Virus record (IMG/VR): IMGVR_UViG_2713896729_000006
Span: 1-18,239 of that record
DNA from: a virus
Taxonomy: Duplodnaviria > Heunggongvirae > Uroviricota > Caudoviricetes
Length of the DNA stretch: 18,239 nt
Strand: one strand, 5' to 3'
The position numbers and the translations under genes were made by a program. This document shows, piece by piece, positions 1 through 13,866 of the stretch (its first letter is position 1; each line of letters opens with the position of its first letter). A model generated the notes under the pieces. The model was not told the origin of the DNA and searched no databases. It saw only the letters and a program-made list of their open reading frames with translations.

Positions 1-1326
1 ATGGCGCTTTCAAGACAAAAATTTACCTTCGAAAGACTTCGCAGATTCACCTTACCGGAAGGGAAAAAACAAACTTTTCTTTGGGATGCAGATGTAACAA
101 CCCTGGCATGCCGAGCAACTAGCGGAGCAAAAGCCTTTGTATTCCAAAGCGTATATGCGGGGAAAACCCTTCGCATGACTATTGGCAATATTAACGACTG
201 GAAGATTGATGATGCGAGAGCCGAGGCAAGACGGATACAAACATTGATCGATACAGGGATAGATCCACGAGTTGCTAAGGCTGTAAAAATCGCAGAAGCA
301 GAATCCCTGCAGGCAGAATCACGTAAAACAAAAGTGACTTTCTCCGTCGCCTGGGAAGACTATCTTCAAGAATTGAGAACCGGTATCAGTGCAAAAACTA
401 AACGCCCATATTCTACTCGATACATTGCCGATCACATTAACTTGTCCAGTCGTGGAGGCGAAAGTAAAAAAAGAGGCCAAGGCCCGACTTCGGCTGGACC
501 ATTGGCTAGTTTGCTCAACCTGCCGTTATCGGAGCTAACCCCAGATTACATAGCAGCGTGGCTGAGTACAGAAAGGCAAAATAGACCTACCGTCACTGCT
601 CACGCTTATCGCCTACTACGTGCTTTCATCAAATGGAGTAATTATCAGAAAAAATATCAAGGGATCATTCCTGGCGATCTGGCACAAGATTACAACGTAA
701 GAAAAATGGTTCCCGTGTCAGCGAGTAAAGCTGATGATTGCCTGCAAAAGGAACAACTAAAAAGCTGGTTTAGTGCCGTGCGTAGCCTCAATAATCCTAT
801 TGCATCGGCCTATCTCCAAGTACTTTTGCTCACTGGTGCTCGGCGTGAAGAAATTGCGTCGCTTCGCTGGTCAGACGTAGATTTCAAATGGTCAAGCATG
901 CGAATTAAAGACAAGATCGAAGGTGAACGTATCATCCCTCTCACTCCTTATGTTTCTGAATTGTTAAATGTACTAGCGCAATCCCCAAATTCTGACGTAA
1001 ATAAGGAGGGTTGGGTTTTCAGAAGTAACAGTAAAAGTGGCAAAATTATTGAGCCGCGTTCAGCGCACAACAGAGCGTTAGTGCTGGCTGAGTTACCACA
1101 TATCAGCCTTCACGGTTTACGTCGTAGTTTTGGTACTTTGGCCGAGTGGGTTGAAGTTCCCACTGGTATTGTTGCTCAAATTATGGGACACAAACCCAGC
1201 GCTCTTGCCGAAAAACACTATCGCCGTCGTCCGTTAGATCTGTTACGAAAATGGCACGAGAAAATTGAGACATGGATCTTAAATGAAGCAGGTATTACCA
1301 TAAAAAACAACGTTGATATGCGTTGA
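1..1326 (+). CDS. Tyrosine-type site-specific integrase (genomic-island / P4-like family, IntF-like)
   Basis: 441-aa ORF starting at window position 1. C-terminal catalytic region carries tyrosine-recombinase motifs (LLLTGARREE, HGLRRSFGTLA, KHYRR). N-terminal region resembles the arm-binding domain of island integrases. Any cognate tRNA/att site would lie upstream of the window. Confidence 0.9.
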   Translation: MALSRQKFTFERLRRFTLPEGKKQTFLWDADVTTLACRATSGAKAFVFQSVYAGKTLRMTIGNINDWKIDDARAEARRIQTLIDTGIDPRVAKAVKIAEAESLQAESRKTKVTFSVAWEDYLQELRTGISAKTKRPYSTRYIADHINLSSRGGESKKRGQGPTSAGPLASLLNLPLSELTPDYIAAWLSTERQNRPTVTAHAYRLLRAFIKWSNYQKKYQGIIPGDLAQDYNVRKMVPVSASKADDCLQKEQLKSWFSAVRSLNNPIASAYLQVLLLTGARREEIASLRWSDVDFKWSSMRIKDKIEGERIIPLTPYVSELLNVLAQSPNSDVNKEGWVFRSNSKSGKIIEPRSAHNRALVLAELPHISLHGLRRSFGTLAEWVEVPTGIVAQIMGHKPSALAEKHYRRRPLDLLRKWHEKIETWILNEAGITIKNNVDMR

Positions 1327-1442
1327 TTCCATTAAAAATCAACATATTACAAAATATCATCAACTATTGATCAAGATAGATTTTCATGTATCGTAATACA
1401 CAGTTTAGTCAATGATACAGCAACTACACAGGAGATAAGCCA

Positions 1443-1883
1443 ATGGCAACCCCAGCAACTGTATCCATAGAACCCACTCTGGCAGCTATCAGAGCTCGCT
1501 GGTGTATTAATTCAAGTAAAACAACTCAATCCTTTAACGATCCTGCGTCCATGGAAGAGGTTGTCGAGTATCTCAAAGGAACATACTCAGCTCTTCGCAA
1601 GTCTGTCGCATGCGCCAAACTGAAAATTTTACATCTTAAACAAAGAATGCAAAATGCTACTAACTTTCTCGCGCGTCTGATGTCATGTAAAAATCAGGCA
1701 TCCAGATCGCATCACAGTACGGCTAAATCAGCTAAAAGTGCCTTATCATCAGATTCAGGTGATGGTAGTGACCCCGACCCCGAGCCCGAAACGTTTCCTT
1801 CTGCCTTCATTACTACCCCTACTAATTCAATAATGCTTAAAGCTTTCTTTGCCAATATCTCAATCACTGAGGTGGCAAAATGA
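1443..1883 (+). CDS. yagN: Hypothetical protein (146 aa), acidic Ser/Asp/Pro-rich C-terminal half; size and position match YagN of the CP4-6 prophage
   Basis: ORF preceded by AGGAGA about 9 nt upstream of the ATG; stop overlaps the next start (ATGA). Symbol assigned from recalled size and gene order (146/284/232/208 aa run next to an integrase), not from a search. Confidence 0.55.
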   Translation: MATPATVSIEPTLAAIRARWCINSSKTTQSFNDPASMEEVVEYLKGTYSALRKSVACAKLKILHLKQRMQNATNFLARLMSCKNQASRSHHSTAKSAKSALSSDSGDGSDPDPEPETFPSAFITTPTNSIMLKAFFANISITEVAK

Positions 1884-2104
1884 GCGCATTCAAACTCCCG
1901 GATACATCTCAATCACAGCTCATTTCAACAGCTGAGTTAGCTAAAATCATTAGCTACAAATCTCAAACCATTCGTAAATGGCTTTGTCAGGACAAATTGC
2001 CTGAGGGGCTACCTCGCCCAAAACAAATCAATGGCCGCCATTACTGGTTACGTAAAGATGTCCTCGATTTTATAGATACATTTTCTGTACGAGAAAGTCT
2101 GTAA
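1880..2104 (+). CDS. AlpA/excisionase-family helix-turn-helix DNA-binding protein (74 aa)
   Basis: Small ORF coupled to the upstream gene by an ATGA overlap. The segment LISTAELAKIISYKSQTIRKWL...GRHYWLRKDVLDFI fits the AlpA / phage excisionase HTH pattern. Position just downstream of the integrase is typical. Confidence 0.7.
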   Translation: MSAFKLPDTSQSQLISTAELAKIISYKSQTIRKWLCQDKLPEGLPRPKQINGRHYWLRKDVLDFIDTFSVRESL

Positions 2105-2140
2105 TAAATTACAGATTTAATTTTATTGATTTATAGCGAT

Positions 2141-2165
2141 GTTGCCCCGAGAAAAATGGGGCAAC
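2141..2165 (+). terminator. GC-rich hairpin downstream of the AlpA-like gene; possible weak intrinsic terminator or regulatory hairpin
   Basis: GTTGCCCC (2141-2148), 9-nt loop GAGAAAAAT, GGGGCAAC (2158-2165). The downstream U-tract is poor (ACTGAGAAATTT), so efficiency is uncertain. Confidence 0.3.
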
Positions 2166-2222
2166 ACTGAGAAATTTCAGATAGTAGTTTTATATTGAGA
2201 TAACAAAGAGGTTTCCTTAAAA

Positions 2223-3077
2223 ATGTCTAATAGTGTTACTAATTTTGAGATGAGCAGCGTTCTACCAGGAAAAAAACCTTGTCAAGGCAAAAACAATGAG
2301 TCACAGGTAGTACAGACTACTCCCATAAAAAAACACTCAGTCACGTTCAAAAATCAATCTTCATTAGGAGTAATTGATCATTATGCCAGACTAACAAATA
2401 AATCTCACTCTTCCGTAATAGCGGAAGTTGTGGATTTGGCTATCCCTATATTAGAAAAATGCAATCGTCATAACTGGTCAATAAATGAAATAAAAAATGA
2501 CCTGTTAAAGTTCTCTATAAAAGAAAGCATCAATCGAAGCCGAGGTAAAACAGAAGTAACTCTGGAAGAGTACTGTTCGTTAATCTGGAAAACGAACATC
2601 ATGAGTCCATTAAAAATCCCCATTGCAGATTACTTTCAACTGAACGCTAATGATGAATTCATGGGGAAAGATGAAAAAACAGTTATACGTGAAAGGCTAT
2701 CCTCGCTGAGGGAAAATTACGATATGGAAAAAGCCATTTACATTTACAATCAACGACATTTTAATGTAAAGCATCAAAGTGTCTCAGGATATTCAAACAT
2801 TATTCTTATTCATAGAACAACCTTTGAGGATTATTACTTTGATGTCGGGCAGACTCTACTCTTGTCAACATCCCAATTAATTATATTCGGGATAAATGAA
2901 GTTCTTAGAAGAAAGGGGATTGTTATGCCTTATCCGGTTGTTTGTTGGATTGATATTTACCATGTCAATGAGATGGTGGTTATGCTGCCAGTGATCCGTA
3001 AAACAGATGTTTCCAACCGTGTTAATGCACCGGATGACATCATTATAAACCCATACTCACAGGAGAGCAGAACCTAA
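2223..3077 (+). CDS. yagM: Hypothetical protein (284 aa) with a putative N-terminal ribbon-helix-helix-like segment; YagM-like
   Basis: AT-rich ORF with AAAGAGG upstream of the ATG. Residues ~38-75 (HSVTFKNQSSLGVIDHYARLTNKSHSSVIAEVVDLAIPILE) resemble an RHH (CopG/Arc-like) beta-strand plus two helices. Remainder has no recognisable motif. Symbol from recalled size/order only. Confidence 0.6.
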   Translation: MSNSVTNFEMSSVLPGKKPCQGKNNESQVVQTTPIKKHSVTFKNQSSLGVIDHYARLTNKSHSSVIAEVVDLAIPILEKCNRHNWSINEIKNDLLKFSIKESINRSRGKTEVTLEEYCSLIWKTNIMSPLKIPIADYFQLNANDEFMGKDEKTVIRERLSSLRENYDMEKAIYIYNQRHFNVKHQSVSGYSNIILIHRTTFEDYYFDVGQTLLLSTSQLIIFGINEVLRRKGIVMPYPVVCWIDIYHVNEMVVMLPVIRKTDVSNRVNAPDDIIINPYSQESRT

Positions 3078-3103
3078 GAGGTAACAAAGAAGGACAAACA
3101 ATT

Positions 3104-3802
3104 ATGAGAGGTAAAATACTACTTTACCACTCAAAGTATCGCTGGCAATCACGCTCTATTTTTGGTTATTTTTTATACAAAATAACATTATTCAGGTATC
3201 AAAAAATAATTTATGACACCGGAGTGCATCAGATGCGTTCATTTTTTTACACCATATGCAGTAGCGAACAGCAAGAAAGCATTACAGATCATCACTCACT
3301 TGCTGAGATATGCCAAAAATTTAATATTCTACCTGAACATGTTGTGATCGAGCAGGTAGATATTAAAGAGGTTGTTTCAGAGCAACGTTTACTCAGACAA
3401 TTGATTCATCATGAAATGAACCGGCAGGACACGCTTGTCATTCCAGATCTAAGCTGTCTTGGCAGAACTGTGGAGGACTTACAGAATATTTTATTTTTTT
3501 GCCTTCAAAAAGAAATGTTTATCTACAGCTACCATCCAGCTTCAAGGATAGAGCCTTCTGCTGAAAGTTGCTTGTCTTTTTTGATTGCTCGTCAGGATAC
3601 GATTGACATTCACAATCTGAAATCAACTAAAAGCCGATATCGACATGTTAAGAAGAAATTAGGACGAAAGGAGGGAAGCAAATACCGACGTGATATCACA
3701 ATACTTAAGAAAGGTGGATTTACTCAGGCTGAGATTGCAAAGAAATTGAGTATCAGTTTATCGACTGTGAAGCGGCACTGGAATAACGGAATCATCGGTT
3801 AA
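3104..3802 (+). CDS. yagL: Serine-recombinase (resolvase/invertase)-like protein with C-terminal HTH; catalytic arginines substituted, so probably a non-catalytic DNA-binding protein; YagL-like
   Basis: FFYTICSSEQQ aligns to the resolvase YARVSTxxQ motif (Ser retained, Arg replaced by Ile). DTLVIPDLSCLGRT aligns to DTLVVxKLDRLGRS (first Arg replaced). C-terminal GGFTQAEIAKKLSISLSTVKRHW is a resolvase-type HTH. A resolvase-length protein would start at the internal Met at 3233 (MRSFFYT...); the 232-aa ORF from 3104 has the better SD (AAGAAGGA). Confidence 0.7.
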   Translation: MRGKILLYHSKYRWQSRSIFGYFLYKITLFRYQKIIYDTGVHQMRSFFYTICSSEQQESITDHHSLAEICQKFNILPEHVVIEQVDIKEVVSEQRLLRQLIHHEMNRQDTLVIPDLSCLGRTVEDLQNILFFCLQKEMFIYSYHPASRIEPSAESCLSFLIARQDTIDIHNLKSTKSRYRHVKKKLGRKEGSKYRRDITILKKGGFTQAEIAKKLSISLSTVKRHWNNGIIG

Positions 3803-3899
3803 TTCCAGAAGCTAATTGCAGAGTAACTTTTTAACAGCCATCACAGGCTGGGGCTACCTTCGTCTCAAATTTAGATGTTGGATAGGTATTATAATGGCA

Positions 3900-4071
3900 T
3901 TGTGTACTCTTACTACCTGTATTCACCAGTAAGAGTAGTAATCAGATCAGTATATCCGTACTAAGATCTGATACCAGTATATACCGACAACAGTGACCAG
4001 GAATAGCCCTGCCTGTATGGCATCCCTGTACGGTCTGCTATAGACCGTAGGACCAAATACAGGTATATATT
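3900..4071 (+). promoter_or_regulatory. Intergenic control region upstream of the yagK-like gene with three hairpin-forming inverted repeats and reiterated CTGTA/TACAG motifs
   Basis: Inverted repeats TACTCTTACT/AGTAAGAGTA (3905-3914 / 3928-3937), ATCAGATC/GATCTGAT (3941-3948 / 3965-3972) and TACGGTCT/AGACCGTA (4029-4036 / 4042-4049). Motifs CCTGTATTC, CCTGTATGG, CCTGTACGG and ATACAGGTA recur across the region. Confidence 0.4.
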
Positions 4072-4698
4072 ATGAAAACATATCAAGGTACTCATGGAGT
4101 ACATATCCTCGAATATCAGATCAAGATTAAAAAATTATTATGTTATTTGACTAACCGTTACCCCAGGTTAACGGCGGTACGTGTCGATCTGCATTATCCG
4201 AAGATAGTCGATAACGGAGACAATATCTGCTGTTTCCCTAATCTTGAACCAGGGGTGATATCCCGAATGCGTGATTCCCTCAGAGCTAAACTGGAGGCTG
4301 ACCGTACCCGTAAGGAGCGTGAAGGTAAACGCATCTACCGTTGCCCTTTATTTATTATATGGGCGAAAGAGTATTCTGAATCAGGTAAATGCCACTATCA
4401 CATTTGCCTGTTGTTCAACAAAGACGCTTACTACCACCTCGGGGATTACGATCAGCACGATAACCTGAGAGGGATGATTACGGGAGCGTGGTACAGCGCC
4501 CTGAGACTGGAGAGAGACGATCACCCAGGTCTGGTCCATTTTCCTGATAACTGTAAGTACGTGCTGGATACCAATAATGCTGACTTCCAGCATAACTACC
4601 AAGCGCTGTTAACCCGACTGGATTACCTCACCAAAGTCGAAAGCAAAGTGTTTGGTGAAGGAGACCGTAACTTCGGCTGTAGCCAAATCGATCTGTAA
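4072..4698 (+). CDS. yagK: YagK/YfjJ-family protein (inovirus Gp2-like family), 208 aa
   Basis: 208-aa ORF with the Cys/His-rich pattern of this family (CCFPN..., GKCHYHICLLFNKDAYYHLG). Size and position after the recombinase-like gene match yagK (and paralog yfjJ) of K-12 cryptic prophages. Assignment from memory. Confidence 0.65.
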   Translation: MKTYQGTHGVHILEYQIKIKKLLCYLTNRYPRLTAVRVDLHYPKIVDNGDNICCFPNLEPGVISRMRDSLRAKLEADRTRKEREGKRIYRCPLFIIWAKEYSESGKCHYHICLLFNKDAYYHLGDYDQHDNLRGMITGAWYSALRLERDDHPGLVHFPDNCKYVLDTNNADFQHNYQALLTRLDYLTKVESKVFGEGDRNFGCSQIDL

Positions 4699-4707
4699 GT
4701 CGGCAAT

Positions 4708-4737
4708 GGCCTTCTCTTTGTGGGAAGGCCTATTTTA
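4708..4737 (+). terminator. Putative rho-independent terminator after the yagK-like gene
   Basis: GGCCTTC (4708-4714), 9-nt loop, GAAGGCC (4724-4730), followed by TATTTTA (4731-4737). Lies between convergent genes. Confidence 0.5.
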
Positions 4738-4785
4738 CGTCAGAGTTCAATAATATAACCAGCAGATAACCTGCCCCCAGGATCT

Positions 4786-5577
4786 TCAATTTGGTGTGAT
4801 TTTTCCACTTTCAGTCATGATAGCGATTGCTTCGTCGATAGTCTGTGTTGTAAAGAGCGAGTTTTCCCTACAGTCCTTGCGAATCACCTTCCTGTTTTTT
4901 TGCACAGAAATGTTCTCGCACCAAGCTAATGTTTCGGCGGCATGCTTTTCTTCCATGCTAATGTCCAAAAAAGCGAGGCGGCTATCAAGGGATTGCATAT
5001 CCTCATTGACAATTGAAGGACTGGATTCTAGGAGGTTCAAACGGTTTTCAACATCGGCAACCTTGCCTTTCACCTGTGAGACGTCTTCCACCAATTTTTC
5101 ATGTCTGTGGATAGCATCAGCAAGTGCTCGTGAGTTTTGGGCCAATATTTCAGCCATTTGCGCGAGGGCAGATCCTTTTGCTTCTGGCGGTGGTGGATAT
5201 ACTCCATGTTTAGTCAACGATGGTATGACCTCATGGAATAACCATTTTTGAAAGCGCTTACCAGCCGCGCTTCGGTCACTCGACATAACTCGATACAAAC
5301 CTGGTTGGGTGACGAAGATCTCTTTCTGACCTTCAAAAACACCATTTTCAGCATCTGTAGTAATATACTCATCGGGGTCAAGAGCCTGTAATTGCGCCCT
5401 GATTATTCCAGCCATCGATTTTACTGTGTAATCAGCGTTGATTTCTCTATTTTCTTTATTCAGCGTGATTAAAACATCTCGTAGTGAGATATATAGAATC
5501 TCACCAAGTATCAATGTTCTTAGATCACTTTCACCAGTCTCACCACGGTAACATATCTTGGTCAGGTTACTATTCAT
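4786..5577 (-). CDS. Bro-N / antirepressor-like domain protein (263 aa) with coiled-coil C-terminal half
   Basis: N-terminal region with ...FQKWLFHEVIPSLTKHGVY..., matching the Bro-N/KilA-N-type consensus (WV..eVLP.iRk.G.Y). C-terminal half is heptad-like and charged. GTGAGGA lies 3-4 nt before the ATG. Confidence 0.65.
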   Translation of the reverse strand: MNSNLTKICYRGETGESDLRTLILGEILYISLRDVLITLNKENREINADYTVKSMAGIIRAQLQALDPDEYITTDAENGVFEGQKEIFVTQPGLYRVMSSDRSAAGKRFQKWLFHEVIPSLTKHGVYPPPPEAKGSALAQMAEILAQNSRALADAIHRHEKLVEDVSQVKGKVADVENRLNLLESSPSIVNEDMQSLDSRLAFLDISMEEKHAAETLAWCENISVQKNRKVIRKDCRENSLFTTQTIDEAIAIMTESGKITPN

Positions 5578-5691: not shown

Positions 5692-6870
5692 CTATGCCTT
5701 CACCAGTTTCGCAGACATGGGGTCATAAACATACCCAATGATGCTACCATCCTTAATACGTGCAACAGCCTCATCGATAACGAATAACGGAACGAGAAAC
5801 CATTCCTCGGGCTGTACTGGATGGCCGAAACGGTCGTTAATGGTAATGTTAAGCCTTGCGGGTGCAAACAACCTGTGAAACAGGTTTTCCATCCGGGTGC
5901 GGTTGATGCCTGCAAGCTTGTATGAAGCTACTACCTCGACCTTCGCTAACAGATAGGTGGAATCGTGTTCCGCATTGGCAATACGCGCCTCTACTTTGCC
6001 GCCAGTCACTCCAATCTTGTGAATGACATCACGATGTTCAGCTACATAAGGGTTATCAGATAGCGAACGCAACACATAAATGGTGCCACTTTCTAGATCG
6101 CTCTCTTCTAGAGCATCGCTGAATAAAGGCCCCATGTCTGGATCGGTAATTCGGCGTGCTGTTTCGTCTTTATACAAAGCACGAACCAGTGACAGCCGAA
6201 GTAGGTTGCTTTCCGTACCATTCGAGTAAATGACACGCAGTCGAGCATCTTTCTTCCCCTGTGGCGAATCGAACTCTTCACCTTCCTCAGCCACATAAGC
6301 CGTTTGACCATCCAGGATGAACCAATGGCCCACTTCAATCGTTGCATACTGTCCAAAAGGTCGGGTCACTCTTAACCCTGAACTTAGATCACTGCGCACC
6401 TGTTCAAATAGCGGTTTGAATGTATCAAAATCCTCGCACGGCTTGCGATCCGCGATCCCTTGTACAGCACGCTTTTCGGAGCTAGCACGAACATGACGCA
6501 AGACTGTGATATCGTCCTCGCTGGTAACATCCGCCAGTTCGGCAGCCAAATTATCGATATCGATAAATTCGTCCGCTGACTCCGCTCCCTCCCCCCCTCC
6601 GGCCAACAAGCCCTGATGATCCAGCGGCTCTAGCAAGGCACGGCAGTCTGGGAGACTGCGTAGCCGGTCGAGCCGCACTGCATAGAGGCGCTCGAAGATC
6701 TCACGATCTTCGCCGTGTTGCGGCGCACGTCCATGTTGGTCAGCGAAGCGCTGGATTTCCTCAAAACCTGCGATGATGCGTTCCTCGCTGGCTGGACGTC
6801 CTTTTTTCTTCTCCGGTGGTGCAAATTCGGCAAGTTCTGCCGCCAAATCGTCTAAATCAGAATTACTCAT
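5692..6870 (-). CDS. GIY-YIG-like (T5orf172-type) domain protein, about 392 aa; third gene of the methyltransferase-helicase operon (B. subtilis YeeC-like)
   Basis: C-terminal region GTIYVLRSLSDNPYVAEHRDVIHKIGVTGGKVEARIANAEHDSTYLLAKVEV fits the GIY-(x10)-YIG-like/T5orf172 pattern with a following conserved Arg. The ATG at 6870 (MSNSDLDD...) overlaps the helicase stop (ATGAGTAA), so it is preferred over the longer ORF start at 6936. N-terminus carries two copies of a D(L/I)D(D/N)LAAELA(E/D) motif. Confidence 0.65.
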   Translation of the reverse strand: MSNSDLDDLAAELAEFAPPEKKKGRPASEERIIAGFEEIQRFADQHGRAPQHGEDREIFERLYAVRLDRLRSLPDCRALLEPLDHQGLLAGGGEGAESADEFIDIDNLAAELADVTSEDDITVLRHVRASSEKRAVQGIADRKPCEDFDTFKPLFEQVRSDLSSGLRVTRPFGQYATIEVGHWFILDGQTAYVAEEGEEFDSPQGKKDARLRVIYSNGTESNLLRLSLVRALYKDETARRITDPDMGPLFSDALEESDLESGTIYVLRSLSDNPYVAEHRDVIHKIGVTGGKVEARIANAEHDSTYLLAKVEVVASYKLAGINRTRMENLFHRLFAPARLNITINDRFGHPVQPEEWFLVPLFVIDEAVARIKDGSIIGYVYDPMSAKLVKA

Positions 6871-8908
6871 AATGTCCCTCCGCCCTAAAACGCATAAACG
6901 CGGCTGCACCTTCTGCAAGGTGCTTTTCCCAGGCATCCGGCGAAGTTAACGATGGGAGGCGTCCACGTTCACGTTTGAATTCAGCAGCACGCTTGGCGAT
7001 CACTTTGGCATCTTCAGGCGTGATCGAGGTACGCTTGGCCGAGATGGCCGCCGCGACCTGCTTCAAGCTATCTTCGCTCATTGTCTTAGCAAGGATGGCG
7101 TAGGCTTCACCAAAGGGATTGATGCGGTCGATAAGATCTATGTCTAAATCGCGTACGTCCATCGCAAAGCGACGCACTCCGTCAATAAGGGCAGTATTGA
7201 GCGTCCCATCGTTCTCGCCGTTGACAATACGCTTAGCCTGCTGCGTGAGATTAAGGGCGGCAATAGCGTGCTGACGCACAGCCTCCTGATCTTCAGCGCC
7301 AAGTTCAGGGTACTTTTCTTTGATGATCTTCCCCATACGAACCTGTGTTAATTCTTCAGGAATGAGCTCTTCGTCGAACAGTCCACGTTCGATGGCGGGC
7401 TTATCTTGCACAAAAGCCGCGATCACTTCATTTAAATCTTCCTGGCAGATGCGTGCCGCCTCTTTGCTCCTGGGCTCGGCAAGTCCCTTAATCTCGATTT
7501 GATACGTCCCTGTCTGCTCATTAACACCAAAATTGCAGTTATCCGGGTCATACCCTCCTTCACCATAATCAAAACCTGGGGTCGGGCCGCTTTCTGGGTT
7601 CTTAGGCTTGAACTCGAAGCGCGGAGCCAATACTTGCTCCATCAGCAGGCTTGCCGCGATGGCTTTCAAGGTATCGTTGACTGCCTCGGTGACTGCCCCC
7701 TCTACAGCATCCGGCTCGGCGATCAGGTTAGTAAACCTTGCGCGGGTTTTACCCGGCGCGTCGCGAGTGGCGCGACCGATGATCTGCACGATCTCAGTCA
7801 GGCTGGCACGGTAACCAACGGTCAACGCATGTTCGCACCAGATCCAGTCGAAACCTTCCTTCGCCATACCAAGTGCAATAATGATGTCCACATAATCACG
7901 GTCTGTCTTCATTTCTGCAGCACGGAGACTTTCCTGAATCTTGCCTTGGCTGGTTGGGTCCACCAGGTCAGCAATACGTAACACGCGTCCATCGAGGCAT
8001 TTGACTAGCTGAAAACCAGTCACAGGATCCGCTCCTTGCCAATCGCCAAGCTCGCCGAGAATGTGCTCCACCTCTTTGATTTTATCCTTCGTGCTCTCGC
8101 GCGAATTGACGTTGGGAATATGGATAATGGTCTTCTTGTCAGGATCGAGTACATTGAGGATGTCATCGACGTAGGAGCCACTGTAGAAGAAGTAGCCGAT
8201 ATCGAGTTGCTTGAGGTATTCGTAGCCGTTAAGTTGTTCGTAGTAGGTGTAGGTGACGGTATCGAACCTGGACTCATCCTGAGGAGCCAACACGGCCTCC
8301 GCATCACCCCGGAAGTAGGATCCGGTCATGGCAACGATGTGCGTCTTGTCCCGCGCGATAAACTGCCCCAGCTGCTGACCAAGCTTATTATCCGGGTTAG
8401 CTGACACATGGTGGAATTCATCGACCGCGATCAGGCGATCGTCAAACGCTTCTATACCGTAGGCATCGACCGCGAAGCGAAAGGTTGCGTGTGTGCAAAC
8501 AAGCACCTTGTCACTACTTTCAAGAAAAGAGCCAAAAGATCTTACCTTGCCACCGTTGTCGTTACCGGGCGCGTTGCACAGGTTCCACTTAGGTTCGACA
8601 TGCCAATCAGTCCAGAATCCAAACTGCGATAGCGGTTCATCGTTGAAGCTCGCGCCGATAGATTTTTCCGGCACAACGATGATTGCCTGTTTAATCCCTT
8701 GATTTTCGAGTTTGTCGAGTGCGACGAACATCAGAGCACGACTCTTACCGGAGGCGGGCGGCGACTTGATGAGAAGATATTGTTCTCCGCGCTTCTCATA
8801 GGCCCTTTCTTGCATAGGCCGCATCCCAAGAGCATTAGCCTTGGTCGATGCTCCGCTGCGTGAGTAGGTAACGGAAACGGACGGTACTGATTTAATCTTG
8901 TTGCTCAT
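6863..8908 (-). CDS. Superfamily 2 DEAD/DEAH-box helicase/ATPase (681 aa); second gene of the operon (YeeB-like)
   Basis: Walker A (LLIKSPPASGKSRAL), DExH box (LIAVDEFHHV), motif III-like (MTGS) and motif VI (QIIGRATR) in order, then a C-terminal extension of about 300 aa. Start ATG overlaps the methyltransferase stop (ATGA at 8905-8908). Confidence 0.85.
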   Translation of the reverse strand: MSNKIKSVPSVSVTYSRSGASTKANALGMRPMQERAYEKRGEQYLLIKSPPASGKSRALMFVALDKLENQGIKQAIIVVPEKSIGASFNDEPLSQFGFWTDWHVEPKWNLCNAPGNDNGGKVRSFGSFLESSDKVLVCTHATFRFAVDAYGIEAFDDRLIAVDEFHHVSANPDNKLGQQLGQFIARDKTHIVAMTGSYFRGDAEAVLAPQDESRFDTVTYTYYEQLNGYEYLKQLDIGYFFYSGSYVDDILNVLDPDKKTIIHIPNVNSRESTKDKIKEVEHILGELGDWQGADPVTGFQLVKCLDGRVLRIADLVDPTSQGKIQESLRAAEMKTDRDYVDIIIALGMAKEGFDWIWCEHALTVGYRASLTEIVQIIGRATRDAPGKTRARFTNLIAEPDAVEGAVTEAVNDTLKAIAASLLMEQVLAPRFEFKPKNPESGPTPGFDYGEGGYDPDNCNFGVNEQTGTYQIEIKGLAEPRSKEAARICQEDLNEVIAAFVQDKPAIERGLFDEELIPEELTQVRMGKIIKEKYPELGAEDQEAVRQHAIAALNLTQQAKRIVNGENDGTLNTALIDGVRRFAMDVRDLDIDLIDRINPFGEAYAILAKTMSEDSLKQVAAAISAKRTSITPEDAKVIAKRAAEFKRERGRLPSLTSPDAWEKHLAEGAAAFMRFRAEGHYE

Positions 8909-11712
8909 GCATTAGTTCTCACTTTACGCTTCTTGCCTTTGGCCGGTGCAGCAGAAGCGGCCATCTTTATATAAAGATCAAATAGCTTTTCAAGCCGCTC
9001 TGTATCATTCTTAAAGCGACGGCCGATGTAGATGCGCTCCAGTACTTCATCATTGCGATCATGCGCAGCCCGCAGATCAGTAGGCATGTTAGCAGGATCG
9101 TATAGGTCCGCGATGGTCGCGGGAAAATGATGCTCACGCGCCAGAAGTATGTCCTCCGCGCAGCGTGTGAGGTCAGCCTTGTTTTTTTCTGTGAGTTTTG
9201 GTACTGGGAAGGTGTTCCAGCCGAGGGTGTTAGAGTAGCGGTAGCGTGTTTCCAATTTTCCGCAGATGGTGGCGATCCAAACCAGGTGTAGACGAGATGC
9301 AATGAGCGCAAGATTCCAGAGCGGAGCGTCGTAGAGAGCAAAGGCGAGGTTACTGACTACCGAATGATTATCAATCAGTCCAACAGGAAGATACTCGCGC
9401 CCTTCCGATGAAACCCCCGGTAGAATCAGCGTGTGCTTGCCACCGTGATACATTTCGCGAAACTGATGAGCCCGTGATGCTAACTCATTCGTACCAGCAT
9501 CTTTACTTTTGAGCCGCATTTCCCGAACGCCATCAATCCGACCCCGAATAGACGCAATCTCCAAAGCTTGCGGCAATTTTACATCAGGGATCCAGAGGCA
9601 CTTACGTACTACTCCGCGAATAAACTCGGCAGAACCATAGATGCGCCGAAGAAATGTCTCTTCATCCTGCTTGCTCAAACCGAGCGAAACCGCGTCATCC
9701 GCCGATAACAAAAGATTTCCCCCATCGACGGGCATGTTGCCAAAAGACATATCCGGCAGACCCGATATGCTCTTGCGCTGGCCCTCGACTACAACATCCT
9801 CACCAACACTCAGATAGGGCGTGATGTTTGTCGCCTCGCGTACAGTAGTTTGGCCATTGCGGTCCAAGTCGTAAAGTAGCCTTGTCTTACTCACATCCGT
9901 AGATAGGCCGACGATAGCGACTGTTACACCCGCGTTGTGTGCAGCAAGGTTCGTCCATTTGAAGCTGGAGTGCGCGAAGCGAATGTGGGAGCCACATTTG
10001 AAAATTGCTGGCCACAGGATAGGAACAATTCGGCCTTGACAGATAGAGTTGGTGCTAACAAAAGCCGAATCCGTTGGTGTGGCTTGCGCGTAGGCAGCAG
10101 CTTTCATGAACCAACCACCAACATAATCGATTTGTTTAGACGAAATACCATAAGGTTCAAATACCGAAGCCAAATCCGCTTTCTGCTCTTTAGTCTGCGT
10201 TTGGCTACCTTTGTAAGGTGGGTTACCACAGATGTATGTCTCCCCACCTTCGTTCTGAAAGCCAATCTCTGCTTGACCGAGAGGCGTCTCAAAGAGGTTA
10301 TCTGCCTGCAACTTCACGCCAATTCCGGACGGAGGGCAAACGCTCAACCAATCAATCCGCAATGCGTTGCCACATGTAATCCAATTATCATTACGCAGAG
10401 GAAGAAACTCGGCCAGTGCAAGTTTTAGTCCCCGGTACACCACATCGCACTGATACTCAGCAATAACTAGCGCGAGACGGGCAATCTCCGCAGGGAAATC
10501 TCGTATTTCGATCCCGCGAAAGTTGGTAAGAGGGATGTCAGAGGCATTATCCATCTCGCCACGTCGTCGATTAATCTCGGCCTCGATGGCTCGCATTTCC
10601 TTGTACGCAATCACTAAGAAGTTGCCAGATCCACATGCTGGGTCGAATACGCGGATTCGGGCCATACGCTTGCGCAGATTGAGCAGCATGCGCGGATTGT
10701 CACCGGCTTCATCCAGTTTCGCCCGCAGTTCGTCGAGGAATAGTGGGTTAAGCACCTTGAGTATATTGGGGACACTAGTGTAATGCATTCCCAACTCACC
10801 ACGCTCTTCGTCTTCGGTAATGGCCTGAATCATCGAGCCGAATATGTCTGGGTTGATTTTGGTCCAATCCAGATTGCCAACATGTAGAAGATAGGATCGC
10901 GCAATACGGCTGAAGCGCGGTACCTCCTCACTTCCCGAGAAAAGAGCGCCGTTTACATAAGGAAACTCAGCAGCCCAACGCGGGATACCGACAACACTTC
11001 GCTCATCGCGTGGGGTGTTCATTGCACGAAACAACGTGGCGATGACCTCGTGCAAATTAGAAGCGTCGCGCTCACTCATCTGCGCAATAGTGTCAGTAAA
11101 GCGCCCCTTGCCTATAAATATGTCAGTGTCTTCGGCGAAAAAGCAGAAAATTAGACGCGCCATGAACTTGTTCATGTCATGACGACGCCCCGAAGTACCC
11201 CATTCAGGATTGTCTTTTAACAGTTCGACGTACAGGCGGTTCAAACGGCTAGTAGCACGGATGTCAAAGGCGTCTTCGCTGATCTGCCGAACAGTGCTGA
11301 TACCTGCCAATGGCAAAAAGAAGCCGAAGTGATCGGGAAAGTCTTTAAAGGCACAAGCCACAGTCTGACCACTGTTGAGGTCCTCGGCTTCAAAGTATTT
11401 GCCGTCCGTGGCAAGGATGAATTTCGCCTTGGCCTTGCCTGTTGCCGGGCTGGCCTTAAGTGCAGCCAGCATCTGTGTGACTTGGCCCCCTTCACTGGCC
11501 AGAATGTGGATGTTGTTTGTCTGAAGAACACCACCCAAGTCGGACTTATTCGATGCCCCGGCGCGCAGACGTTTGATGGTCGTTTCCTTGTTACCAAAGG
11601 CTTCAAGAAAAGCATAAGGAAACTCTATAGGATCAAAGGGTTGTTCCGCAAGATCCGTGATGGCTTGCTCAATTTCTACGGCGTTCATTTGCGTACAGTT
11701 CTCCATTGGCAT
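8905..11712 (-). CDS. MmeI-family (Type IIL/IIG-like) gamma-class N6-adenine DNA methyltransferase with C-terminal target-recognition region (935 aa); first gene of the operon (YeeA/PglX-like)
   Basis: Motif X-like (LGMHYTSVPNILKVLNPLFLDEL), motif I (VFDPACGSGNFLV) and motif IV (CGNPPYKGSQTQTKEQKADL) in gamma order. Further MmeI-like blocks: RLIFCFFAEDTDIF, FPYVNGALF, LDWTKINPDIFGS, SAFVSTNSICQG, LETRYRYSNTLGWNTFP, LYDPANMPTDLRAAH. The N-terminal 100 residues show no obvious D...ExK nuclease motif by eye. The true start may be the Met at residue 9 (MNAVEIEQ). Confidence 0.88.
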   Translation of the reverse strand: MPMENCTQMNAVEIEQAITDLAEQPFDPIEFPYAFLEAFGNKETTIKRLRAGASNKSDLGGVLQTNNIHILASEGGQVTQMLAALKASPATGKAKAKFILATDGKYFEAEDLNSGQTVACAFKDFPDHFGFFLPLAGISTVRQISEDAFDIRATSRLNRLYVELLKDNPEWGTSGRRHDMNKFMARLIFCFFAEDTDIFIGKGRFTDTIAQMSERDASNLHEVIATLFRAMNTPRDERSVVGIPRWAAEFPYVNGALFSGSEEVPRFSRIARSYLLHVGNLDWTKINPDIFGSMIQAITEDEERGELGMHYTSVPNILKVLNPLFLDELRAKLDEAGDNPRMLLNLRKRMARIRVFDPACGSGNFLVIAYKEMRAIEAEINRRRGEMDNASDIPLTNFRGIEIRDFPAEIARLALVIAEYQCDVVYRGLKLALAEFLPLRNDNWITCGNALRIDWLSVCPPSGIGVKLQADNLFETPLGQAEIGFQNEGGETYICGNPPYKGSQTQTKEQKADLASVFEPYGISSKQIDYVGGWFMKAAAYAQATPTDSAFVSTNSICQGRIVPILWPAIFKCGSHIRFAHSSFKWTNLAAHNAGVTVAIVGLSTDVSKTRLLYDLDRNGQTTVREATNITPYLSVGEDVVVEGQRKSISGLPDMSFGNMPVDGGNLLLSADDAVSLGLSKQDEETFLRRIYGSAEFIRGVVRKCLWIPDVKLPQALEIASIRGRIDGVREMRLKSKDAGTNELASRAHQFREMYHGGKHTLILPGVSSEGREYLPVGLIDNHSVVSNLAFALYDAPLWNLALIASRLHLVWIATICGKLETRYRYSNTLGWNTFPVPKLTEKNKADLTRCAEDILLAREHHFPATIADLYDPANMPTDLRAAHDRNDEVLERIYIGRRFKNDTERLEKLFDLYIKMAASAAPAKGKKRKVRTNA

Positions 11713-11993: not shown

Positions 11994-13316
11994 TTAAAAC
12001 GTATTAAGGTTGCACCGAATATGGTTTTCCCCGCTGACCCTGACCCGATTGACTGTCCAGTCAGCTATGACGTCAAGCACATGACGAAGGTAGCTTTCTG
12101 GATCCACGCCGTTTAGTTTGCACGTCCCGATCAGACTGTACATCAGCGCTACACGCTCACCTCCGTGGTCTGAGCCGAAGAACAGCCAGTTTTTTCTCCC
12201 CAAACTGACCATCCGCAGCGCATTTTCAGCGATGTTGTTATCGGCTTCTGTCCAGCCATTGCCTGCATAGTGCGTCAGGGCCGGCCACTGGTTAAGGGCG
12301 TACGCGAACGCTTTCGCCAGCTCTGAGTGTCGTGACAGGGTGTTCATCTTTTCACGCAGCCAGCTTTCCAGGGATTTCAGCAGCGGTTTCGCTTTCTGCT
12401 GACGTTCAGCAAGACGTTGCTCCGCCGGCATTCCCCTTATTTCCGCCCCGATGGCATACAACCCGCCGATACGCTTCAGGGCATCCTCCGTCAGCGCCGA
12501 CGGCGTGCGGGCGTACACATCGTGGATTTTACGGCGGGCGTGAGCCCAGCAGGCGGCTTCCGTTATCTGGCCACCGCGGTACAACTCGTTGAATCCTGCA
12601 TACGCATCCGCCTGCAGCACTCCCCTGAAGCCGGCAAGATGGGTCTGCGGGTGGATGGCTTTTCTGTCCGGGCTGTAAGCGAACCACACCGCCGGTGCGA
12701 CTGCTGACCCGGCGTTGCGGTCATCACGAACGTACTTCCACAATCGCCCGGACTTCGTCTTCTTATTGCCCGACAGCAGCATCTGGACCGGGGTATCATC
12801 GACATGGAGTTTGCCGTCGCTCAGGACATAGCCCCGAAGCGCCTCCTCCAGCGGTGACAGCAGCCTGCAGCATGCATCCACCCAGCCCGACAGGAGGGAG
12901 CGGCTCAGTTCCACACCCTGGCGGCTATATATTTCAGACTGGCGGTACAGCGGGGTATGCTCTGCATACTTTGAGCCCAGTACCCGGGCCAGCAGCCCCG
13001 CTCCGGCGATACTCCGCTCGATGGGACGTGAAGGCGCGGGGGCCTGCACGATAGCGTCGCATTTTGTACAGGCGTGTTTTTCCCGCACGGTCCGGATAAC
13101 CCGGAAGGCGCTGCGCATCAGCTCCAGCTGTTCAGCAGTATCTTCACCCAGCCAGCGCAGTGAATCGCCACAGTCCGGGCAGCATGATGCCGCCGACAAC
13201 AGCCGTTTTTCGTCACGAGGGAGTGATTCGGGGAACGGTTTACGGGTGCGGGTCTGGCGAAGCGACCACGCTCCAGCCGTTTGGTCAGCAGACACAGCCT
13301 GTCGCCGGTAGACCAC
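11994..13316 (-). pseudogene. tnpC: IS66-family transposase TnpC, lacking the N-terminal leucine-zipper segment and with an aberrant C-terminus
   Basis: Zinc-finger region (CCPDCGDSL...ACTKCD) and the conserved IS66 core are present. The ORF is about 440 aa against roughly 510-540 aa for intact TnpC, and the last 20 residues do not resemble the family C-terminus. Confidence 0.7.
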
Positions 13317-13486
13317 AGCAATTTTACCTGACTGCCACTGCAGCCCCGGAAGATGAAGACTTGGCCGGACATCGGGTCGTCTTTCAGTGCCGTCTGCACT
13401 TTTGCCGCCAGCCCGTTGAAGCCGTTGCGCATGTCGGTGATACCGGCAACCAGCCAGATTTTAGTGCCTGCAGGAAGATTTATCAT
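13118..13486 (-). pseudogene. tnpB: IS66-family TnpB (orf2), C-terminally aberrant; likely fused to tnpC by an internal deletion
   Basis: MINLPAGTKIWLVAGITDMRNGFNGLAAKVQTALKDDPMSGQVFIFRG...LWSTGDRLCLLTKRLERGRF is canonical IS66 TnpB for about 80 residues. The rest diverges and the ORF overlaps the tnpC frame by about 200 bp. Confidence 0.6.
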
Positions 13487-13866
13487 ACAGTCCCTCGCAT
13501 CAGTTCGCGCAGGACAGTGGTGATGAGTTCAGTTGAGGGATGAGTCAGTGTTATATCTCCGCCCCGACATTTTATGTGACAGGCAGTCTGAGGTGAACAG
13601 GATGGCGGTTCGGGCGTTGGGGGAGATGGCTCTGCCCGAAATTGCACGGGTATGAGAGCAGGAAGCGACGATGCGTTTTTCCGTGGGTGGCAGACCCGCC
13701 CTTCACGTTGCCAGAGCCTTATCCATTTAAAGAGCAGGTTGTCATTGACATCATGTTGTCGGGCCAGCGCAGCAACACTTCCTTCTTTTTCAAGTGCCAG
13801 CCTGACCAGTTCCATTTTAAACTCAGGGGAATATCGTTTTCGGGGAAGTCTTTCTTTGGCGCGCAT
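13483..13866 (-). CDS. tnpA: IS66-family accessory protein TnpA (orf1), 127 aa
   Basis: MRAKERLPRKRYSPEFKMELVRLALEKEGSVAALARQHDVNDNLLFKW... matches the IS66 orf1 pattern. Stop overlaps the tnpB start (ATGA). Confidence 0.8.
   Translation of the reverse strand: MRAKERLPRKRYSPEFKMELVRLALEKEGSVAALARQHDVNDNLLFKWIRLWQREGRVCHPRKNASSLPALIPVQFRAEPSPPTPEPPSCSPQTACHIKCRGGDITLTHPSTELITTVLRELMRGTV

What the first reader, a model, noticed from the sequence alone, without database searches (positions are those of the whole stretch)
6525..6870. Duplicated acidic LAAELA motif at the N-terminus of the GIY-YIG-like protein
The protein begins MSNSDLDDLAAELAEFAPP and about 95 residues later repeats …EFIDIDNLAAELADVTSEDD…, separated by a Gly/Glu-rich stretch. 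The repeat is visible at DNA level too (GCCAAAT(T/C)(A/G)TC near 6540-6560 and 6840-6860). Short duplicated acidic helices at the start of an effector are typical of docking or regulatory peptides. Here they could tether the protein to the helicase or methyltransferase, or mimic DNA.
Basis: seen in the sequence. Interest (0 to 1): 0.45.

Follow-up and report, generated by a model that had tools for sequence, protein, structure and literature searches.

The report
Twin acidic docking helices in YeeC
A 12-residue acidic helix really does occur twice at the front of the nuclease subunit of a known three-gene restriction-like defence system, and selection keeps the two copies alike, which points to paired docking peptides whose binding partner is still unproven.

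Summary
The 392-aa T5orf172/GIY-YIG protein (5692-6870, minus strand) carries DLDDLAAELAEF (aa 5-16) and DIDNLAAELADV (aa 104-115). They lie 99 codons apart, and the DNA shows a 32-nt repeat at 75% identity.

Both copies persist across the family down to about 35% identity. Within one protein the two copies resemble each other more than orthologous copies do between proteins (score 29.1 versus 19.7 and 22.4; 0 of 20,000 permutations). Codon identity shows no excess, so selection on the peptide keeps them alike, not gene conversion.

AlphaFold2 places each copy in a short, low-confidence helix inside variable linkers. The linkers flank a well-folded three-helix module resembling a helicase-associated (HA) domain, so the spacer is not just a Gly/Glu stretch.

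The protein is YeeC of the known YeeA(DnmA)-YeeB-YeeC system, derived from MmeI-type enzymes. My best reading is paired docking helices that tether the nuclease to its partners.

- Copy 1 variants track residues 672 and 676 on the last helix of helicase YeeB.
- The YeeB tail is homologous to YeeC's HA-like module.

This is a moderately interesting, apparently undescribed feature of a known family.

The parts
5692..6870 (-). yeeC: 392-aa nuclease subunit carrying a T5orf172/MUG113 domain (GIY-YIG superfamily)
   Evidence: Pfam MUG113 1.9e-13 and T5orf172 3.7e-11 at aa 262-372. Full-length BLASTP to B. subtilis YeeC (34% identity, 2e-49) and V. crassostreae YeeC (32%, 9e-48).
6823..6858 (-). Motif copy 1, aa 5-16, DLDDLAAELAEF
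   Evidence: AF2 helix 6-15 at pLDDT about 61. L9 and L13 are conserved in the non-redundant family set.
6526..6561 (-). Motif copy 2, aa 104-115, DIDNLAAELADV
   Evidence: AF2 helix 105-113 at pLDDT about 50. L108, A109 and L112 are conserved. It aligns to copy 1 over exactly 12 profile columns.
6601..6792 (-). HA-like three-helix module, aa 27-90, with the signature F-x4-HGRxP...DIFERLYAVRL
   Evidence: AF2 helices 27-46, 58-72 and 74-83 at pLDDT about 90. It is the most conserved part of the N-terminal region. Pfam gives only sub-threshold hits to HNH_repeat and PMBR. It is homologous to the YeeB tail.
6562..6600 (-). Variable Gly/Glu/Ala linker, aa 91-103
   Evidence: Lowest conservation in the region and up to 16 inserted alignment columns. 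pLDDT is below 50.
6487..6513 (-). Third conserved island, DITVLRHVR, aa 120-128, in a low-confidence region
   Evidence: L124 and V127 are nearly invariant. pLDDT is about 55.
6136..6450 (-). Beta-rich middle domain, aa 141-245
   Evidence: AF2 pLDDT about 90. Foldseek finds only weak KOW/SH3/Tudor-like barrel matches in the PDB (best E 5.5e-3).
5695..6096 (-). T5orf172/GIY-YIG catalytic domain, aa 259-392
6863..8908 (-). yeeB: 681-aa DEAD/ResIII helicase, translationally coupled to yeeC
   Evidence: Pfam DEAD and ResIII. The ATGAGTAA stop/start overlap. It lies immediately upstream of yeeC in every locus long enough to show it.
6896..7036 (-). YeeB C-terminal tail, aa about 624-671: a helix-loop-helix homologous to the first two helices of the YeeC HA-like module. 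Residues 672 and 676, which track copy-1 variants, follow directly (DNA about 6881-6895).
   Evidence: hhalign probability 94.5%, E 8e-8. Covariation.
8905..11712 (-). yeeA (dnmA-type): 935-aa MmeI-family methyltransferase and specificity subunit
   Evidence: All five MmeI Pfam domains. PADLOC type IIG model at 3.4e-283. ATGA overlap with yeeB.

Best explanation
The two motifs are copies of one short peptide module. It is an acidic, moderately amphipathic helix of about 12 residues. In the closer homologues the consensus is D-hydrophobic-D-[DE]-L-x-A-E-L-x-[DEG]-hydrophobic. Across the whole family it is roughly [DE]-x-[LI]-[LA]-x-x-L.

The copies sit on flexible linkers on either side of a small folded HA-like module. 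Together these make up the N-terminal adaptor region of YeeC. YeeC is the GIY-YIG/T5orf172 nuclease subunit of the YeeA(DnmA)-YeeB-YeeC restriction-like system.

I infer that each helix folds on binding and docks onto the same kind of site on a partner subunit. The result is a two-point tether that couples the nuclease to the helicase motor and/or the MmeI-like methyltransferase.

The most likely receptor for copy 1 is the basic C-terminal helix-loop-helix tail of helicase YeeB.

Shown here: the motif is real, is confined to YeeC, is conserved, and is kept similar between the two copies by selection on the protein. Inferred: that it binds protein, and which protein it binds.
For: 1. Both copies are present across the family down to about 35% identity. 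This holds in every locus class examined and in the V. crassostreae and B. subtilis YeeC proteins.

2. The copies evolve in concert.
- The within-protein copy1-copy2 score averages 29.1.
- Cross-protein pairs average 19.1, orthologous copy1-copy1 pairs 19.7, copy2-copy2 pairs 22.4, and shuffled sequence 16.3.
- None of 20,000 permutations reached the observed value.
- L9-L108 is the fifth strongest MI-APC pair in the whole protein.

3. Gene conversion is not the cause. At 499 positions where the two copies share an amino acid, across 79 genes, 198 codons are identical against 205.8 expected.

4. The anatomy matches short docking motifs.
- There are two conservation islands inside variable, indel-rich linkers, and the copy spacing ranges from 91 to 115 residues.
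- AF2 predicts isolated helices at pLDDT 61 and 50, next to domains at about 90.
- The repeat unit is only 12 columns long.

5. The motif is exclusive to YeeC. A motif PSSM at 16 bits or more hits only YeeC, twice per protein, in 944,000 ORF residues from 80 loci.

6. The genes look like a stoichiometric complex.
- yeeA-yeeB-yeeC synteny is present in 66 of 80 genome loci and in five further loci of four distant variants, where the contig is long enough to show it.
- The stop and start codons overlap.

7. Several results point to the YeeB tail.
- It is homologous to YeeC's HA-like module.
- It is the only net-positive segment tabulated.
- Of 1,041 variable columns in the three proteins, only YeeB 672, YeeB 676 and YeeA 202 predict the A/R class at copy-1 position 10 with NMI above 0.8.
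- R10 goes with V672/D676, and A10 with M672 and A or K at 676, in 58 of 68 loci. This holds over at least 9 switches on the YeeB-core tree.
- An AF2 model of a frameshift-derived pseudo-fusion (YeeB C-terminal 118 aa plus YeeC) gave pLDDT 77 and 69 for the two helices.
Against: - No complex was modelled or measured.
- The pseudo-fusion model is uncontrolled, because the sequence, motif class and alignment all differ from the monomer run. Only pLDDT is visible, not contacts.
- YeeB 672 and 676 lie only about 40-55 bases from copy 1 position 10 on the DNA. Co-transfer of a recombination block would give the same coupling without any contact.
- Copy 2 shows no clear covarying partner column.
- B. 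subtilis YeeB lacks the tail, yet its YeeC keeps both motifs. The tail therefore cannot be the only receptor, or that system is decaying.
- Amphipathicity is only moderate (hydrophobic moment 0.43-0.46, below the 90th percentile of 0.49).
Confidence: 0.5

Rival explanations
1. The helices are intramolecular regulators. They fold back onto YeeC's own HA-like module, middle domain or nuclease DNA-binding surface. This keeps the nuclease off until the motor or methyltransferase signals. The reader's 'DNA mimic' idea is a special case of this.
For: - The motifs are acidic (-5 and -4) and lie in cis to a DNA-cutting domain.
- pLDDT of 61-77 is compatible with weak packing onto a neighbouring domain.
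- Flexible linkers would allow fold-back.
Against: - Motif columns show no strong covariation with the HA-like, middle or nuclease domains. Their strongest long-range couplings are between the two copies.
- The monomer AF2 model does not dock them confidently.
- A 12-residue helix with conserved leucines is not an extended phosphate-mimicking surface.
Confidence: 0.2
2. The helices are self-association elements. They pair between two YeeC molecules, or copy 1 pairs with copy 2, bringing two single-site GIY-YIG domains together to cut both strands.
For: - Similar sequences can pack homotypically.
- Inter-copy covariation at equivalent positions (L9-L108) is strong.
- From general knowledge: GIY-YIG domains have one active site and need two for a double-strand break.
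Against: - Twelve residues is very short for a stable helix pair.
- The strong net negative charge on both copies would repel.
- Direct contact would predict complementary changes rather than identical ones.
Confidence: 0.1
3. The helices bind something outside the operon. This could be a host hub protein or a phage-encoded trigger or inhibitor, with the two copies adding avidity.
For: - No third copy and no obvious receptor motif was found in YeeA or YeeB.
- According to its authors, DnmA in B. subtilis partly localises at the replisome (PMC9973331).
Against: - The motif sequence differs markedly between lineages within this one operon type, from LAAELA to LLxxLGV to SLDDILxxDDxxLLD. That fits a co-evolving cognate partner better than a conserved host hub.
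- It does not match the beta-clamp or SSB-tip binding motifs that I know of.
Confidence: 0.12
4. The repeat has no specific function. It would be a chance or low-complexity similarity between two Leu/Ala/Glu/Asp-rich helices.
For: L, A, E and D are common residues, and an exact repeated 6-mer arises in 0.6% of shuffles.
Against: - The motif is conserved to about 35% identity.
- Within-protein similarity exceeds orthologous similarity, with z = 10.9.
- Exactly two hits per YeeC occur and none elsewhere in 944,000 residues.
Confidence: 0.03

Closest known systems
YeeC of the YeeA(DnmA)-YeeB-YeeC cluster (B. subtilis; V. crassostreae 7F1_18)
   Same: - Same three genes in the same order.
- Full-length homology: 34% and 32% identity, E 2e-49 and 9e-48.
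- Both published proteins carry the two motif copies, in their own sequence dialects. V. crassostreae has IDLDDIFSEEDDGLLDV and TSLD.IFDDDDLLDF. B. subtilis has SINEIMES and SIDDILKS.
- Morgan et al. 2009 already proposed that the MmeI-like subunit works with separate helicase and GIY-YIG subunits (PMC2731913).
- yeeAB confers resistance to some vibriophages (bioRxiv 10.1101/2021.05.05.442762).
   Different: - None of these papers describes the duplicated N-terminal motif or the HA-like module, as far as the searchable library shows.
- B. subtilis YeeB lacks the C-terminal tail that is present here, and that locus gave no phage protection.
Type I HsdR and Type ISP enzymes (LlaGI, LlaBIII)
   Same: They combine an ATP-dependent SF2 motor, a nuclease and an adenine methyltransferase/specificity unit in one restriction machine. 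Morgan et al. see the YeeABC group as a link to type I systems.
   Different: In those enzymes nuclease and motor are one polypeptide with a PD-(D/E)xK or Mrr nuclease. Here the nuclease is a separate GIY-YIG/T5orf172 protein, so it needs a tether. The twin helices are a candidate for that tether.
Multi-copy short helical docking motifs, for example the LxxLL boxes of nuclear-receptor coactivators (from my own knowledge; an analogy only)
   Same: - Short amphipathic helices with conserved leucines.
- Several copies on flexible linkers.
- They fold on binding, and multiple copies allow bivalent engagement.
   Different: The domain of life, the sequence pattern and the acidic N-terminal cap all differ. 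No receptor is known for the YeeC motif, and binding has not been shown.
Helicase-associated (HA, PF03457) and homing-endonuclease-associated (HNH_repeat, PF18780) helical repeats
   Same: - The module between the two copies, and the YeeB tail, share the small helical F-x4-G-[RH]-x-P signature.
- They sit at a helicase C-terminus and a nuclease N-terminus.
- Sub-threshold HNH_repeat and PMBR hits were obtained.
   Different: No hit reaches a Pfam gathering score (best 14.9 bits against a cut-off of 26), and PF03457 itself was not hit. The 12-residue motif is not part of these models.
DNA-mimic anti-restriction proteins (Ocr, ArdA; from my own knowledge)
   Same: They are acidic and associated with restriction systems.
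   Different: Those are whole proteins displaying long arrays of carboxylates with B-DNA spacing. Here there is one 12-residue helix with 4-5 acidic residues and an invariant leucine face.

Membership tests
YeeC (nuclease subunit of YeeA/DnmA-YeeB-YeeC) | C-terminal T5orf172/MUG113 (GIY-YIG superfamily) domain | tested here: met
   Pfam PF13455 at 1.9e-13 and PF10544 at 3.7e-11, aa 262-372, both above the gathering score.
YeeC (nuclease subunit of YeeA/DnmA-YeeB-YeeC) | Full-length sequence homology to the named YeeC proteins | tested here: met
   BLASTP to sequences transcribed from Fig. S5 of PMC9973331: B. subtilis 34% identity, 2e-49; V. crassostreae 32%, 9e-48, covering aa 5-391.
YeeC (nuclease subunit of YeeA/DnmA-YeeB-YeeC) | Encoded directly downstream of a DEAD-type helicase (YeeB) and an MmeI-family methyltransferase (YeeA) | tested here: met
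   for the window. All three genes are present in 66 of 80 genome loci, and the order holds in five further loci of four distant variants.
YeeA-type MmeI homologue (Morgan et al. 2009, second set) | MmeI-like throughout, but lacking the N-terminal PD-ExK catalytic motif (MmeI D70/E80/K82) | tested here: inconclusive
   All five MmeI Pfam domains hit. By phmmer only aa 96-199 align to MmeI 108-205, so the first 95 residues do not align. That fits 'differs in the first 100 residues'. The catalytic positions could not be mapped residue by residue.
Short linear docking motif / helix that folds on binding | Short conserved island inside a variable, low-confidence (probably disordered) region | tested here: met
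   Conservation profile and indels. pLDDT of 50-63 against about 90 for the neighbouring domains. The repeat unit spans 12 columns.
Short linear docking motif / helix that folds on binding | Demonstrated binding to a defined partner surface | not testable with these tools
The model output gives no contacts. Only indirect covariation with YeeB 672/676 is available.
HA (PF03457) / HNH_repeat (PF18780) helical repeat | A match above the Pfam gathering score | tested here: not met
   HNH_repeat E 0.036, 14.9 bits against a cut-off of 26, found in 5 of 55 members. PMBR was found in 3 of 55. PF03457 was not hit. I therefore call the module 'HA-like' by shape and signature only.
DNA-mimic protein (Ocr/ArdA type) | An extended surface of regularly spaced acidic residues the size of a DNA duplex segment | tested here: not met
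   Each copy is 12 residues with charge -5 or -4 and an invariant leucine face.

The most novel reading that the evidence does not exclude
The yeeB/yeeC gene boundary may split a helical repeat array. YeeB ends after two helices of an HA-like module, and YeeC begins with the acidic helix. Copy 1 would then complete the YeeB tail in trans as its missing third helix, with copy 2 as a spare or competing copy.

The lineage-specific dialects of the motif (LAAELA / LRAELD / LLxxLGV / SLDDILxxDD..LLD), matched to YeeB 672/676, would then act as an address code. That code would keep each nuclease loyal to its own motor. It could also let one nuclease bridge two converging motors, so that it fires only on collision.
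Probability: 0.15. Interest if true: 0.6.

Novelty: new member of a known kind. Interest (0 to 1): 0.4.

Why it matters
No structure, stoichiometry or assembly mechanism is known for it.

If the twin helices are the tether between the separate GIY-YIG nuclease and the helicase or methyltransferase, they give a small, mutable handle on an open question. That question is how a restriction machine with a detachable nuclease is assembled and kept in check.

Point mutants of four leucines, or motif swaps between orthologues, would test assembly and specificity directly.

The concerted evolution of two copies without gene conversion is also a clean example of a peptide motif being held to a common ligand.

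If the helices turn out to be structural trimmings, the finding is a minor annotation detail.

Tried and rejected
1. Complex prediction. I built a 14-row paired alignment of YeeB, a Gly-Ser linker and YeeC(1-140).

2. Natural YeeB-YeeC fusions. A junction-spanning query found only frameshift or assembly artefacts: P0258, P0216, P0273-P0275, P0281, P0285 and P0287. I used P0281 as a stand-in fusion. Motif pLDDT rose by about 15 points, but without a matched control, so I count the result as inconclusive.

3. Gene conversion as the cause of copy similarity. Rejected by the codon test.

4. A third motif copy.
- None was found in YeeB.
- The motif-like FLDELRAKLDEA in YeeA (15.8 bits) is a generic MmeI-family helix, since MmeI itself has PLFLDELWVEFEKV at the same place.
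- The conserved helicase segment DLDIDLIDRINPF has a different hydrophobic register by eye, and the PSSM did not score it.

5. Motif copy 1 as a homologue of helix 3 of the HA-like module. A relaxed hhalign can align them, but confidence is near zero and the score does not improve.

6. Solved structures. No sequence relative of YeeC or YeeB is in the PDB. Foldseek gave only weak barrel hits for the middle domain.

7. PADLOC and NCBIfam have no model for YeeC. For YeeB, NCBIfam has none and PADLOC gives only weak PbeA hits.

8. Inter-protein covariation for copy 2 gave scattered, uninterpretable top columns.

Full report
**What is in the sequence**

The finding lies in a minus-strand operon of three translationally coupled genes.
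- A 935-aa MmeI-family methyltransferase (8905-11712) carries all five MmeI Pfam domains.
- A 681-aa DEAD/ResIII helicase occupies 6863-8908.
- A 392-aa protein (5692-6870) has a C-terminal T5orf172/MUG113 (GIY-YIG superfamily) domain.

The stop and start codons overlap: ATGA at 8905-8908 and ATGAGTAA at 6863-6870, the latter with GGAGGG upstream. The mechanical ORF list starts the third gene at 6936.

- LAAELA occurs at aa 9-14 and 108-113. Extended, the copies read DLDDLAAELAEF and DIDNLAAELADV, with 8 of 12 residues identical.
- On the DNA, 6530-6561 and 6827-6858 are 75% identical and 297 nt (99 codons) apart. GCCAAATYRTC occurs only at 6545 and 6842 in the window.
- An exact repeated 6-mer appears in 0.6% of shuffles of this protein.
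- The 12-mer similarity score of 41 compares with a shuffled background of 16.3 +/- 4.6.
- Profile-profile comparison aligns exactly these 12 columns and no flanking sequence.

One detail needs correcting. Between the copies lies a conserved three-helix module (aa 27-90, pLDDT about 90). Only aa 91-103 form the variable Gly/Glu/Ala linker.

**Conservation and concerted evolution**

Close relatives (at least 79% identity) occur in Pantoea, Alcaligenes, Pseudomonas, Stenotrophomonas and others, and all keep both copies.

A search of 1.84 billion cluster representatives with aa 1-250 gave 1,363 relatives. Nearly all of the full-length representatives shown, down to about 35% identity, have recognisable motifs at both positions, and the sequence changes in parallel in the two copies. 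Examples are DDALLEELGVE/DDALLEALGVE, RKDILDELD/RKEVLDELG and TLSEIFALDDEL/SLDDIFALDDEI.

The effect can be quantified.
- The within-protein copy1-copy2 score averages 29.1.
- Cross-protein pairs average 19.1.
- Orthologous copy1-copy1 pairs average 19.7, and copy2-copy2 pairs 22.4.
- None of 20,000 permutations reached the observed mean (z = 10.9).

MI-APC on 129 sequences ranks L9-L108 fifth among all residue pairs of the protein. It shows no strong coupling of motif columns to the folded domains.

Gene conversion does not explain the similarity. At 499 positions where the copies share a residue, across 79 genes, 198 codons are identical against 205.8 expected from each gene's codon usage. 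Selection on the peptide therefore keeps the copies alike.

**Anatomy**

AlphaFold2 (55-sequence alignment, mean pLDDT 82) gives the following.
- Helix 6-15, pLDDT about 61.
- A short linker.
- The three-helix module: helices 27-46, 58-72 and 74-83.
- A disordered linker.
- Helix 105-113, pLDDT about 50.
- A further conserved but low-confidence stretch that includes DITVLRHVR (aa 120-128).
- A beta-rich middle domain, aa 141-245.
- The GIY-YIG domain, aa 259-392.

In a 70%-non-redundant set the motifs are islands of conservation (L9, L13, L108, A109, L112) inside variable linkers with indels. The spacing between copies ranges from 91 to 115 residues, with a median of 99.

Each helix carries a charge of -5 or -4 and has a moderate hydrophobic moment. 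A motif PSSM at 16 bits or more hits only YeeC, twice per protein, in 944,000 residues of ORFs from 80 loci.

**What the system is**

The operon is the YeeA(DnmA)-YeeB-YeeC type.
- Morgan et al. (2009) described MmeI homologues that lack the PD-ExK motif and are 'invariably' flanked by a DEAD helicase and a GIY-YIG protein. They proposed that the three work together (PMC2731913).
- In B. subtilis the locus gave no phage protection (PMC9973331).
- In V. crassostreae 7F1_18, 'only yeeAB mediated resistance' to one group of phages (bioRxiv 10.1101/2021.05.05.442762).

The window protein aligns over its full length to both named YeeC proteins. Both carry the two motif copies in their own dialects.

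Synteny is conserved. All three genes are present in 66 of 80 genome loci from many phyla. The order also holds in five further loci carrying four distant variants.

The window matches an E. coli chromosomal island beside intF-yagN-ykgV-yagM-yagL-yagK.

No structure of a YeeB or YeeC relative exists in the PDB. The papers I could search do not mention the motif.

**Mechanism**

The properties above are those of short helices that fold on binding. Two copies held to one sequence argue for one kind of binding site.

Because the nuclease is a separate polypeptide in this system, a tether is needed. I therefore favour paired docking helices (confidence 0.5).

A lead points to the helicase tail.
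- YeeB aa about 624-671 is homologous to the first two helices of YeeC's HA-like module (hhalign 94.5%, E 8e-8).
- It is the only net-positive segment tabulated.
- Of 1,041 variable columns in the three proteins, only YeeB 672, YeeB 676 (same helix face) and YeeA 202 predict the Ala/Arg class at copy-1 position 10 with NMI above 0.8.
- Arg10 goes with Val672/Asp676 in 27 loci. Ala10 goes with Met672 and Ala or Lys at 676 in 31 loci. That is 58 of 68 loci, over at least 9 switches on a YeeB-core tree.
- The pairing Arg10 with Asp676 is charge-compensating.

The caveat is serious. These YeeB codons lie about 40-55 bases from copy 1 position 10, so co-transfer of a recombination block would give the same pattern. 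Copy 2 shows no comparable partner column.

As a substitute I modelled P0281, a frameshift artefact that joins the last 118 residues of a YeeB to its YeeC. The two helices scored pLDDT 77 and 69, against 61 and 50 in the monomer. The sequence and alignment differ between the runs and contacts are not reported, so the result is only compatible with docking.

**Rival readings**

- Intramolecular autoinhibition, including the DNA-mimic idea: 0.2.
- Self-association of two nuclease subunits: 0.1.
- Binding to a host or phage factor: 0.12.
- Chance: 0.03.

**Verdict**

This is an apparently undescribed, family-wide feature of a known but mechanistically uncharacterised defence system, with clear experiments available. 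Interest 0.4.

Noticed in passing
window 6896-7036 (minus), YeeB aa about 624-671: The helicase C-terminal tail (AKRAAEFKRERGRLPSLTSPDAWEKHLAEGAAAF) is homologous to the first two helices of YeeC's N-terminal module (hhalign 94.5%, E 8e-8). B. subtilis YeeB, whose locus gave no phage protection, ends before this tail.
   Followed up: partly
window 6881-6895 (YeeB 672 and 676) versus 6841-6843 (YeeC position 10): YeeB residues 672 and 676 switch together with the Ala/Arg/Leu class of motif copy 1 in 64 of 68 loci. They are the top-ranked inter-protein columns out of about 1,600. Contact and DNA linkage could not be separated.
   Followed up: partly
window 6487-6513 (minus), YeeC aa 120-128: A third conserved island, DITVLRHVR, sits just after copy 2 in a low-pLDDT region. 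It may be another binding element.
   Followed up: no
window 6548-6569: A 22-nt near-palindrome, AAATTATCGAT|ATCGATAAATT (91% complementary, no spacer), lies inside the DNA encoding copy 2 (EFIDIDNL). Its significance is unknown and it may be chance.
   Followed up: no
L001, L003, L007, L012 and many other loci, between yeeA and yeeB: In many genomes 1-1.8 kb of extra DNA separates yeeA from yeeB, probably a fourth gene. In the window the two genes overlap by 4 nt.
   Followed up: no
window 11994-13866: IS66-family genes (the transposase at 11994-13316, the TnpB_IS66 gene and an HTH_Tnp_1 gene) lie about 280 bp beyond the start of yeeA. E. coli ECC-1470, otherwise 100% identical over the operon, has a Y-family polymerase gene there instead.
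   Followed up: partly
window 1-5577: The operon sits in an island beside a tyrosine recombinase gene (intF), yagN, ykgV, yagM, yagL, yagK (YagK/YfjJ_C, inovirus Gp2-like) and a BRO-N gene. This is a typical mobile-element setting for a defence system.
   Followed up: partly
window 10705-10740 (minus), YeeA aa 325-336: FLDELRAKLDEA resembles the R-class motif LDELRAELDEF (15.8 bits). MmeI itself has PLFLDELWVEFEKV at the same position, so it is a generic methyltransferase helix and not a third copy.
   Followed up: yes
window 6136-6450 (minus), YeeC aa 141-245: The middle domain is confidently predicted as beta-rich. It has only weak KOW/SH3/Tudor-like barrel matches in the PDB (best E 5.5e-3), so its role is unknown.
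   Followed up: partly
P0258, P0216, P0273-P0275, P0281, P0285, P0287: Database 'proteins' that span the yeeB/yeeC junction are frameshift or assembly artefacts. The yeeC reading frame stays open for about 20 codons upstream of its ATG, which eases such read-through. No genuine helicase-nuclease fusion was seen.
   Followed up: yes
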